DNA of 54,960 nt from a bacterium (GTDB taxonomy: Bacteria; Patescibacteriota; Doudnabacteria; UBA920; VMFF01): positions 1 to 54,960 of the forward strand of contig DAIEPO010000001.1 in the NCBI GenBank assembly GCA_027348385.1, in the 5' to 3' direction. The notes beneath the pieces were generated by a model. It was not told where the DNA came from, searched no databases, and saw nothing but the letters and a program-made list of their open reading frames with translations. How positions within the stretch are numbered: position 1 is the stretch's first letter; the number at the start of each line of letters is the position of its first letter. Below, in pieces: positions 39,200-39,461 of the stretch. Made by a program: the position numbers and the translations under genes.

Positions 39200-39230
39200 A
39201 AATCCCCCATTTCGGGGGATTTTTCATTTT
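39200..39230 (+). terminator. rpmB rho-independent terminator
   Basis: AAATCCCCC-ATTTC-GGGGGATTT, followed by TTCATTTT. Confidence 0.8.
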
Positions 39231-39296
39231 AATCTTTTCTTAACGAAAAGTTAATCATTTTAGAGTATTAATATCAGGAAAAGAAAATCCTGATCT

Positions 39297-39366
39297 GGGG
39301 ATGGCAGGTTCGCGAGTAACGAACCTTATCAATTTGTTCTTGTGGGTTCGAGTCCCACCATCTCCA
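39297..39366 (+). ncRNA. 70-nt tRNA-like element: Ala/tmRNA-type acceptor (G3:U70, A73) and canonical T arm, non-canonical core
   Basis: GGGGATG (39297-39303) pairs with CATCTCC (39359-39365), giving G3:T70. The discriminator is A (39366). The T arm is GTGGG-TTCGAGT-CCCAC (39342-39358). Between them lie a 7-bp hairpin AGGTTCG-CGAGTAA-CGAACCT and a 15-nt unpaired stretch. There is no D arm, no U33 and no encoded CCA. Confidence 0.45.
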
Positions 39367-39432
39367 TAATTGACAGGTCGGATTAAATTAAATACGATTG
39401 TATTGGTAAGGTTCGTTTCCGTGACCTGTTTT

Positions 39433-39458
39433 AAAGCCCCGAATTTCTTCGGGGCTTT
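39433..39458. terminator. bidirectional terminator-like hairpin after parB and the tRNA-like element
   Basis: AAAGCCCCGAA-TTTC-TTCGGGGCTTT; only short T/A tracts on each side. Confidence 0.55.
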
Positions 39459-39461
39459 AAA

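What the first reader, a model, noticed from the sequence alone, without database searches (positions are those of the whole stretch)
39273..39458. 70-nt tRNA-like element with alanine/tmRNA identity features but no D or anticodon arm
Positions 39297-39366 form a 7-bp acceptor stem, GGGGATG/CATCTCC. It contains the G3:U70 pair that defines alanyl-tRNA synthetase recognition in tRNA-Ala and tmRNA, with discriminator A. The T arm is textbook: GTGGG-TTCGAGT-CCCAC.

The interior is only 38 nt. It consists of one 7-bp hairpin (AGGTTCG-CGAGTAA-CGAACCT, G where U33 should be) plus 15 unpaired nt. The 5' end, GGGGAUGGCAGGUUCG, resembles the conserved tmRNA 5' end (GGGG-N3-...-GG-N-UUCGAC). There is no tag ORF or pseudoknot region, and no CCA is encoded, whereas the nearby tRNA-Leu does encode CCA.

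It follows a small hairpin (39273-39294). A long hairpin ACAGGTC...GACCTGT and a terminator-like stem (39433-39458) follow it, so the transcript may be about 160 nt.

Possible interpretations:
- A minimal tRNA-like domain RNA.
- An internally deleted ssrA.
- An unusual tRNA.
- A tRNA-mimic used by a mobile element.
Basis: partly seen in the sequence, partly recalled or inferred. Interest (0 to 1): 0.6.

Follow-up and report, generated by a model that had tools for sequence, protein, structure and literature searches.

The report
tRNA-like RNA with private antisense partner
The odd "tRNA" is real: it is an alanine-type tRNA look-alike that sits next to a tiny, separately promoted RNA built to base-pair with it, a two-RNA module present five times in this ultra-small bacterial genome and found in no paper or RNA database I could search.

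Summary
The acceptor stem (G3:U70, A73) and the T arm are at the stated coordinates. The interpretation needs revision.

- **Not the genome's tmRNA.** smpB is present, and three congeners carry a normal 384-nt ssrA.
- **One of five paralogs.** 63 unique tRNA-like RNAs ("T") were collected from this order of Patescibacteria (Candidatus Doudnabacteria-like).
- **Conserved features of T.** G1:C72, G2:C71, G3:U70, A73 and usually CCA are near-invariant. T has a tiny D-like hairpin and a long anticodon-like arm. Its loop reads U-N-R-N-C-A and lies exactly 12 nt before the T stem, as in real tRNAs.
It holds a consensus promoter (TTGACA-17-TACGAT, 39370-39398). This drives a ~55-nt RNA ("S") whose first ~28 nt are antisense to T positions ~7-36.
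- **Co-variation.** The pairing co-varies in 60 of 63 modules and is specific within the genome.

Most likely S unfolds and silences an alanine-accepting T that acts in translation. The function remains inferred.

The missing CCA is also specific to this copy. Earlier agents of this scan reported the same module in at least 36 other genomes. I found no publication.

The parts
39240..39272 (+). Upstream control region of T. It holds the palindrome TTAAC-GAAAA-GTTAA (39240-54) and a -10-like box TATTAA (39266-71). There is no consensus -35.
   Evidence: An alignment of 24 genus modules gives the 80% consensus TAAT.A..A.TTAAT-N10-TAT. The promoter scan finds no consensus + strand promoter here. 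The start site is not determined.
39273..39294 (+). Leader hairpin ATCAGGA-aaagaaa-TCCTGAT in front of the mature 5' end. It is presumed to be removed by RNase P.
   Evidence: Seen in the sequence. It is kept in the three orthologs but not in other paralogs. It may be only partly transcribed if the -10 box is read correctly.
39297..39366 (+). T RNA, an alanine-type tRNA-like RNA of 70 nt. Layout: acceptor 39297-303/39359-65 (G3:U70); D-like connector 39304-13; anticodon-like arm 39314-41 with loop CUUAUCA at 39325-31; T arm 39342-58; discriminator A39366.
   Evidence: (78 bits with model R1).
39367..39369 (+). TAA where orthologs and 57 of 63 relatives encode CCA.
   Evidence: The genome encodes a CCA-adding enzyme. 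At least 4 of 34 canonical tRNAs also lack an encoded CCA.
39318..39333 (+). X: the segment of T (5' strand of the anticodon-like stem plus the loop) that is complementary to the 5' end of S.
   Evidence: 16 pairs including one U:G. The predicted duplex extends to T 39303-39334 (32 pairs, -44.6 kcal/mol).
39370..39398 (+). Promoter of S: -35 TTGACA (39370-75), a 17-nt spacer, -10 TACGAT (39393-98). It starts directly after the T 3' end.
   Evidence: Flagged by the promoter scan with 10 of 12 matches. The same architecture is found in 60 of 60 modules.
39402..39461 (+). S RNA, about 55-60 nt, with an inferred start near G39405. It comprises X' ATTGGTAAGGTTCGTT (39402-17), an extension complementary to the D-like region of T (39418-30), and a palindromic terminator-like stem AAAGCCCCGAA-TTTC-TTCGGGGCTTT (39433-58) shared with convergent parB.
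   Evidence: The terminator stem is seen but not flagged. The ends are not mapped experimentally.
39372..39429 (+). GACCTGT). It can form only in read-through T-S transcripts and encloses the S -10 box and X'.
   Evidence: It is present in the orthologs, with one compensatory inner pair change CGGA/TCCG to CGAA/TTCG. It is not a family-wide feature: observed median 5.25 vs shuffled 5.0.

Best explanation
Positions 39297-39366 encode T, a compact tRNA-shaped RNA that carries the complete alanine identity set.

The 90 nt after it encode S, a small RNA with its own consensus promoter. The 5' tail of S docks on the U-turn loop of T's anticodon-like arm. Pairing then extends for about 28 nt along the 5' strand of that arm and through the D-like hairpin.

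In the paired state the core of T is unfolded, so T cannot act as a tRNA-shaped molecule, and the long duplex is a likely RNase III substrate. S is therefore a dedicated off-switch (antidote) for T.

T itself is most likely charged with alanine and acts on the translation machinery. Its loop triplet (UAU here) is not an alanine anticodon, so free T would be harmful or at least tightly rationed. That would explain why every copy carries a private inhibitor.

**Shown:** the two genes, their complementarity and co-variation, the promoter, and the identity elements.

**Inferred:** separate transcription of S, alanylation, inhibition by S, and the role in translation.
For: **A family, not a one-off**
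- Five paralogs in this 0.55-Mb genome share the same layout.
- 63 unique T-RNAs were collected from the order. 60 have a complement of 9 nt or more, lying 33-58 nt past the CCA. The median score is 14.5, against 6.5 upstream and 7.5 with non-cognate partners.

**Pairing**
- S is the reverse complement of T positions ~7-36, with a median of 25.5 aligned nt.
- Cognate duplexes have a median of -41 kcal/mol against -20.8 for non-cognate ones.
- In the 5x5 matrix for this genome, cognate pairs score -38 to -46 and non-cognate pairs -17 to -30.

**Co-variation and strand**
- Orthologs differ in X with matching changes in X', for example AACGAACCTTA / AACCAGCCTCA / AACAAACCTTA.
- Mismatches are G:U-type 70 vs A:C-type 32, p = 2e-4. 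This points to RNA pairing on this strand.

**S promoter**
- TTGnnn-16/17/18-TAnnnT is present in 60 of 60 modules, with TTGACA exact in 34.
- The -35 box starts 0-6 nt after the CCA in 48 of 60.
- The gap from the -10 box to X' is mostly 5-6 nt, which puts the start at the first bases of X'.

**Alanine identity**
- G1:C72 in 62 of 63, G2:C71 in 63 of 63, G3:U70 in 62 of 63, A73 in 61 of 63, CCA in 57 of 63.
- AlaRS, a CCA-adding enzyme and RNase III are encoded in the genome.

**tRNA geometry**
- The loop motif U-N-R-N-C/U-A is found in 61 of 63.
- Exactly 12 nt separate the triplet from the T stem in 48 of 61, the canonical tRNA value.

**Not a required decoder**
- A 100%-complete congener has canonical tRNAs with anticodons UAC, CAC, UAU and CGA.
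Against: - The RNA ends, charging and abundance of T and S are unknown.
- There is no terminator between T and S. Every T transcript may therefore carry S in cis, and 3' maturation of T is unexplained.
- Position 37 is a pyrimidine (C in 55 of 61). This is very unusual for a decoding tRNA. It may simply pair with the initiating G of S.
- The middle purine of the triplet is equally explained by the YUNR U-turn motif of antisense target loops.
- The triplet is not conserved between orthologs (UAU, UAC, CAC).
- This copy lacks an encoded CCA, and its minimum-energy fold differs from the family fold, so it may be drifting.
- The direction of control (S silences T) is assumed from topology, not shown.
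Confidence: 0.55

Rival explanations
1. Roles reversed or outside the ribosome. T is a stable tRNA-scaffolded regulator or an alanine donor for a non-ribosomal enzyme, for example the Fem-type peptidoglycan bridge transferase. S is its target, sponge or throttle.
For: - The topology matches IS10 RNA-OUT/RNA-IN, where the stable stem-loop RNA is the regulator (established knowledge).
- A FemAB-family gene is present in this genome.
- AlaRS needs only the acceptor stem (established knowledge).
Against: - FemAB occurs in 141 of 146 genomes of the order, but the module in at most 44. There is no association.
- S has no coding potential, and neither X nor X' has another genomic match within 2 mismatches.
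- In the window, S faces a convergent gene, so it is not a leader.
- An acceptor-only donor would not need the fixed 12-nt anticodon-arm geometry.
Confidence: 0.15
2. Mini-tmRNA. T is a tRNA-like-domain-only derivative of ssrA, like the one in mycobacteriophage DS6A. It binds SmpB and modulates or replaces trans-translation.
For: - The acceptor stem GGGGAUG/CAUCUCC is identical to that of the genus tmRNA.
- The D-like AGGYUnGCGA resembles tmRNA GGAUUUUGACA.
- The tmRNA model gives 26-38 bits on T-RNAs.
- TLD-only RNAs are reported to inhibit tmRNA (PMC4131195, PMC11915505).
- A 159-nt short tmRNA-like gene exists in the order.
Against: - T carries a full-length anticodon-like arm exactly where SmpB sits on tmRNA (established knowledge from the tmRNA-SmpB structures).
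- All scores are below the Rfam cut-off of 47.
- Many paralogs have tRNA-Ala-like acceptors (GGGCC...).
- Five to seven copies per genome, each with a private antisense RNA, are not explained.
Confidence: 0.1
3. One structured ~165-nt transcript. The 'promoter' is coincidental, and X:X' is an intramolecular long-range helix of a single RNA or a processing signal.
For: - There is no terminator between T and S.
- The minimum-energy fold of the co-transcript pairs T 7-36 with X' (-64.6 kcal/mol).
Against: - A -35/-10 pair with 16-18-nt spacing, placed 2-8 nt before X', is found in 60 of 60 divergent modules. This is hard to explain at the RNA level.
- The hairpin spanning the promoter is not family-wide.
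- An intramolecular duplex would destroy the conserved tRNA fold and bury its chargeable end region.
Confidence: 0.1
4. No function: a decaying ssrA or tRNA-Ala pseudogene, or a DNA-level inverted repeat such as a recombination site or mobile-element scar.
For: - This copy has lost CCA and folds differently from its relatives.
- Inverted repeats can be homogenised by gene conversion (established knowledge).
Against: - There is strong stem co-variation with invariant identity pairs.
- The G:U over A:C bias is specific to the sense strand.
- Both promoters are conserved.
- The locus is syntenic in congeners without mobile genes.
- X differs between paralogs, unlike recombinase sites.
Confidence: 0.04

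Closest known systems
tRNA-Ala and compact-core tRNAs (tRNA-Pyl-like, mitochondrial tRNAs with reduced arms)
   Same: - 7/5 acceptor/T branch, G3:U70, A73, CCA and a canonical T loop.
- A loop with a U-turn placed 12 nt before the T stem.
- ARAGORN's mitochondrial mode can fold it.
   Different: - The D arm is reduced to a 2-5-bp hairpin.
- The anticodon-like stem has 6-10 layers, and the variable region is 0-2 nt.
- Position 37 is a pyrimidine, and the triplet is not an alanine anticodon.
- Bacterial tRNA detectors do not find it.
- It is always paired with an antisense gene.
tmRNA tRNA-like domain and TLD-only ssrA of mycobacteriophage DS6A (PMC4131195; PMC11915505)
   Same: - Alanine identity without an alanine anticodon.
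- The acceptor stem is identical to the genus tmRNA.
- About 70 nt long, with no tag reading frame.
   Different: - It has an anticodon-like arm in the space SmpB would occupy.
- It is multi-copy.
- It has a private antisense partner.
- A normal ssrA coexists in congeners.
Allo-tRNAs (Mukai et al. 2017, PMC5389517)
   Same: Irregular bacterial tRNAs whose identity elements (Ser or Ala) do not match the anticodon. They are suspected to be regulatory or linked to toxin-antitoxin loci.
   Different: - Allo-tRNAs have 8/4 or 9/3 acceptor/T branches, whereas T is 7/5.
- A term search of that paper found no mention of 'antisense' or 'complementary'.
Antisense pairs that use 5'-tail-to-loop recognition with a YUNR U-turn (IS10 RNA-IN/RNA-OUT, hok/sok, CopA/CopT), and all-RNA (type VIII) toxin-antitoxin pairs such as SdsR/RyeA
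   Same: - A single-stranded 5' tail nucleates on a YUNR loop and pairing runs down one strand of the stem.
- A strong promoter drives the presumed antidote.
- Multiple orthogonal copies are present.
   Different: - S lies downstream on the same strand, not opposite its target.
- The target is a tRNA-shaped RNA, not an mRNA.
- Toxicity of T is untested.
- The C4 antisense RNA model (RF01695) was not among the matches listed at E <= 10.

Membership tests
Canonical elongator tRNA (Rfam RF00005) | 7-bp acceptor stem, 5-bp T stem and 7-nt T loop | tested here: met
   Seen. The stems are 99% paired with compensatory changes across 61 sequences.
Canonical elongator tRNA (Rfam RF00005) | D arm (3-4-bp stem, 7-11-nt loop), 5-bp anticodon stem, 7-nt loop with U33 and purine 37 | tested here: not met
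   The window has a 2-bp/6-nt D-like hairpin at best, an anticodon-like stem of about 10 layers, and C at position 37. C/U37 occurs in 61 of 61.
Canonical elongator tRNA (Rfam RF00005) | Recognised by tRNA detectors at their thresholds | tested here: not met
   ARAGORN default and -ps find none. Rfam finds nothing at gathering score. None of the five T loci of G004 is among its 41 tRNA-model hits at E <= 1e-3.
tmRNA (Rfam RF00023) | tRNA-like domain with G3:U70, A73 and CCA | tested here: met
   G3:U70 and A73 are present. CCA is replaced by TAA in this copy but present in the orthologs.
tmRNA (Rfam RF00023) | mRNA-like domain with resume codon, tag reading frame and pseudoknots between the two halves of the tRNA-like domain; score above the cut-off | tested here: not met
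   Only 38 nt lie between the acceptor and T stems. The score is 30.9 bits against a cut-off of 47. ARAGORN tmRNA mode finds none. Full-length ssrA is present in congeners.
TLD-only ssrA (phage DS6A type) | Little more than the tmRNA tRNA-like domain, with no anticodon-arm analogue; acts through SmpB | tested here: inconclusive
   The size and identity elements fit. The long anticodon-like arm argues against it. SmpB binding is not testable here, and the DS6A sequence was not compared.
Allo-tRNA (8/4 or 9/3) | 12-bp acceptor/T branch divided 8/4 or 9/3 | tested here: not met
   The division is 7/5 in all aligned members.
YUNR-loop antisense control pairs | Target hairpin loop with a YUNR U-turn and an antisense RNA with a complementary single-stranded 5' tail | tested here: met
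   The window loop is C-U-U-A-U-C-A. The motif is found in 61 of 63. X' lies at the inferred 5' end of S in 60 of 60.
YUNR-loop antisense control pairs | Antisense RNA encoded opposite its target (cis-antisense), and the target is an mRNA | tested here: not met
   S lies downstream on the same strand. The target is a non-coding tRNA-like RNA.
All-RNA (type VIII) toxin-antitoxin pair | The RNA effector is growth-inhibitory and is neutralised by the partner RNA | not testable with these tools
   Only the pairing and promoter logic are shown. Toxicity needs expression tests.

The most novel reading that the evidence does not exclude
T-RNAs are alanine-charged, ribosome-competent tRNA look-alikes whose loop triplets read Val, Ser, Thr, Leu or Ile codons. 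Each is caged by a private antisense RNA. Release of T, for example when the short-lived S decays after transcription shut-off or phage attack, would cause a burst of alanine misincorporation or ribosome jamming. This would be an RNA-only, programmable 'mistranslation switch' or toxin-antidote system in bacteria with ultra-small genomes.
Probability: 0.25. Interest if true: 0.92.

Novelty: categorically new. Interest (0 to 1): 0.8.

Why it matters
**If T and S work as inferred**
- This would be the first case of a tRNA-shaped, probably aminoacylated RNA controlled by its own dedicated small RNA.
- A 0.6-Mb genome keeps 5-7 mutually orthogonal copies, which is a large investment for so small a genome.

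**Questions it makes testable**
- Do bacteria deliberately keep tRNAs whose identity and anticodon disagree?
- How is such a molecule kept safe?
- What RNA-only regulation looks like in Patescibacteria, a group whose small RNAs I found no report of in the searched papers.

**Practical use**
- The pairs are naturally orthogonal, compact RNA-RNA switches built on a tRNA scaffold.
- That makes them of practical interest for synthetic biology.

**For annotation**
- These genes are missed by tRNA, tmRNA and Rfam pipelines.
- They can be mistaken for broken ssrA or tRNA genes.

Tried and rejected
1. **It is the genome's tmRNA.** Rejected. smpB is present. Congeners have a 384-nt ssrA scoring 130-134 bits with a tag frame. 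The incomplete assembly (89%) simply lacks it.
2. **T fills a gap in the tRNA set.** G000 seemed to lack tRNAs with UAC, UAU and CGA anticodons. Rejected. The 100%-complete congener G004 has canonical tRNAs for all of them.
3. **T acts on T-box leaders.** There is no Rfam T-box match in the genome at E <= 0.01.
4. **Link to the Fem transferase.** FemAB is near-universal in the order, so it is uninformative.
5. **Link to RqcH alanine tailing.** No NFACT_N match above the cut-off.
6. **Other targets of X or X'.** None within 2 mismatches in the assembly.
7. **A conserved neighbouring protein gene.** None across 26 loci.
Not better than shuffled controls.
9. **Phage homologues.** No blastn match in 50,697 phage records.
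10. **Spread beyond the order.** Model R1 hit only the own order in an even sample of 151 genomes of the phylum. The model may be too narrow.
11. **Literature.** Five searches found no description.

Full report
**1. What is in the sequence**

Positions 39297-39366 read GGGGATG GC AGGTTCGC GAGTAACGAAC CTTATCA ATTTGTTCTT GTGGG TTCGAGT CCCAC CATCTCC A, followed by TAA.
- ARAGORN finds only tRNA-Leu in the window. Rfam at gathering thresholds also finds only that tRNA.
- In a permissive Rfam search of the region, the only related hit is a weak tmRNA match.
- Over the whole genome, the tmRNA model aligns the element end to end at 30.9 bits, against a cut-off of 47.

**2. It is not the genome's tmRNA**

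- The assembly is 555 kb in 50 contigs and 89% complete. It encodes SmpB.
- No tmRNA is found in it.
- Three congeners each carry a canonical 384-385-nt ssrA scoring 130-134 bits, with a tag reading frame. The window genome's ssrA is therefore most likely in the unassembled 11%.
- The genus tmRNA has exactly the acceptor stem of the window element (GGGGAUG/CAUCUCC, A, CCA).
- By SHMT similarity, the closest named relatives are Candidatus Doudnabacteria / Patescibacteria MAGs.

**3. It is one of a family**

The tmRNA scan also picked up four other ~72-nt elements in the same genome that ARAGORN does not call:
- C33:21496-21568
- C2:382-454
- C22:45037-45108
- C33:1844-1914

All four have G3:U70, A73 and CCA. 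All five, including the window copy, are followed by three things:
- TTGACn, then 16-17 nt, then TAnnnT.
- A 13-17-nt stretch complementary to their own interior.
- A terminator hairpin.

The window locus is conserved at 86-87% identity over all 186 nt in three congeners, between the same genes, rpmB and parB. Those orthologs encode CCA, so TAA is peculiar to this copy.

**4. Family-wide evidence**

A covariance model from 15 members hits up to 44 of 146 genomes (17 of 67 genera) of the order. This is an upper bound, because a few of the lowest-scoring hits are genuine tRNA-Ala (for example L080). The genus carries 5-7 copies per genome. In an even sample of 151 genomes of the phylum, the model hits only the own order.

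From the fetched loci I collected 63 unique T-RNAs.

*Identity elements:*

| Element | Count |
|---|---|
| G1:C72 | 62/63 |
| G2:C71 | 63/63 |
| G3:U70 | 62/63 |
| A73 | 61/63 |
| CCA | 57/63 |

*Structure:*
- Acceptor pairs 4-7 and the T stem vary with compensatory changes and are 99% paired. No shuffle out of 500 reached the observed co-variation score.
- The shared fold is a 7-bp acceptor, a 2-5-bp D-like hairpin with GG in its loop, a 6-10-layer anticodon-like stem, 0-2 variable nucleotides, and the T arm.
- The loop carries U-N-R-N-C/U-A in 61 of 63.
- The distance from the triplet to the T stem is exactly 12 nt in 48 of 61, the canonical tRNA value.
- ARAGORN's mitochondrial mode folds 39296-39367 as a tRNA with reduced arms and triplet UAU.

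**5. The partner RNA**

*Complementarity:*
- In 60 of 63 modules a complement of 9 nt or more lies 33-58 nt after the CCA. Of the three exceptions, two sit at contig ends.
- The median score is 14.5, against 6.5 on the upstream side and 7.5 with non-cognate partners.
- Alignment that gives G:U no credit shows S to be the reverse complement of T positions ~7-36, with a median of 25.5 nt.
- Among the mismatches, 70 are G:U-type and 32 are A:C-type (p = 2e-4, not corrected for relatedness). This is expected if pairing is selected at the RNA level on this strand.

*Energies:*
- Cognate duplexes have a median of -41 kcal/mol against -20.8 for non-cognate ones.
- Within this genome the five pairs are orthogonal.
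- The window pair forms 32 predicted pairs at -44.6 kcal/mol.

*Promoter:*
- All 60 modules have a sigma-70-type promoter between T and X'. TTGACA is exact in 34, and TTG is present in all.
- The spacer is 17 nt in 35 modules, 16 nt in 17 and 18 nt in 8.
- The gap from the -10 box to X' is mostly 5-6 nt, so transcription should start at the first bases of X'.
- In the window this is TTGACA-17-TACGAT at 39370-39398, which the promoter scan also flags.

*Other targets and neighbours:*
- Neither X nor X' has another match in the assembly.
- No protein gene recurs beside the module.

It is kept in the orthologs but is not a family feature.

**6. Mechanism**

*Shown:* two adjacent RNA genes whose products are extensively and specifically complementary and co-evolve. 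One is tRNA-shaped with an invariant alanine identity set.

*Inferred:*
- T is processed like a tRNA and charged by AlaRS. The genome encodes AlaRS, a CCA-adding enzyme and RNase III.
- The 5' tail of S nucleates on the U-turn loop, as in IS10 or hok/sok-type antisense control (established knowledge).
- Pairing then extends through the D-like hairpin, unfolds T and probably exposes it to RNase III.

Invariant charging determinants, a canonical T loop and tRNA-like geometry would be superfluous for a mere antisense scaffold. I therefore favour an action of T on the translation machinery.

A complete congener has canonical tRNAs for UAC, CAC, UAU and CGA. T is thus not a needed decoder. If it decodes, it would place alanine at Val, Ile or Ser codons, which would explain the private inhibitor.

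Points against decoding:
- Position 37 is a pyrimidine.
- The always-purine middle base is equally a YUNR feature.
- The triplet changes between orthologs.

**7. Rivals**

The rival readings are:
- a mini-tmRNA acting through SmpB;
- an alanine donor for non-ribosomal enzymes;
- a single structured transcript;
- a pseudogene or DNA repeat.

Each is weighed in its own section of this report. None explains the combination of identity elements, geometry, promoter and orthogonal partners as well.

**8. Novelty**

- No Rfam family matches.
- Five literature searches and three papers read in part (PMC11915505, PMC4131195, PMC5389517) describe only TLD-only tmRNAs and allo-tRNAs, without antisense partners.
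- Earlier agents of this scan reported the same kind of module in at least 36 other genomes, and the C22 paralog in this genome. My analysis was independent and agrees with theirs.

**9. Limits**

- The T promoter is not consensus and its start site is unknown.
- It is not resolved whether the window copy, without CCA and with a competing hairpin, is fully functional.

Noticed in passing
G000:C33:21496-21568(-), C2:382-454(+), C22:45037-45108(-), C33:1844-1914(-): Four further T/S modules lie in the same genome. Each has its own complement, promoter and terminator. Their loop triplets are CAC, UAC, CAC and CGA.
   Followed up: yes
L035 (G010:C1:613380-613538, minus strand): A 159-nt tmRNA-like gene scores 60.9 bits, above the Rfam cut-off. 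It sits beside a normal 387-nt ssrA in a genome of the same order. It has no encoded CCA, and ARAGORN finds no tag frame. It may be a short, CDS-less tmRNA.
   Followed up: partly
window 39240-39254: A palindrome TTAAC-N5-GTTAA lies upstream of T and recurs upstream of several paralogs. Modules in another family of the order carry a different inverted repeat (ACTTTA-N9-TAAAGT) at the same place. These may be operator sites for a regulator of T.
   Followed up: partly
G004 tRNA set (L191-L210): The complete congener has a canonical tRNA-Ile with anticodon UAU as well as GAU. No tRNA-Phe or tRNA-Tyr was among its 41 Rfam/ARAGORN tRNAs.
   Followed up: no
G000:C50:21721-23097(-): The AlaRS match lies in an open frame of only 628 aa and covers model positions 2-436 of 552. 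It may be a shortened AlaRS or may be cut by the contig end.
   Followed up: no
window 39200-39222 and 39433-39458: Both intergenic hairpins are perfect palindromes with A-tracts and T-tracts on either side. They look like bidirectional terminators, the first for rpmB and the second shared by S and convergent parB.
   Followed up: partly
G000 canonical tRNAs (C28 Asp, C34 Gly, C45 Pro, C45 Ala): For four of 34 canonical tRNAs the ARAGORN span does not end in CCA, and the bases just downstream do not supply one. Three of these genes lie within about 400 nt of a contig start. The genome keeps a CCA-adding enzyme (C46:16837-17211).
   Followed up: partly
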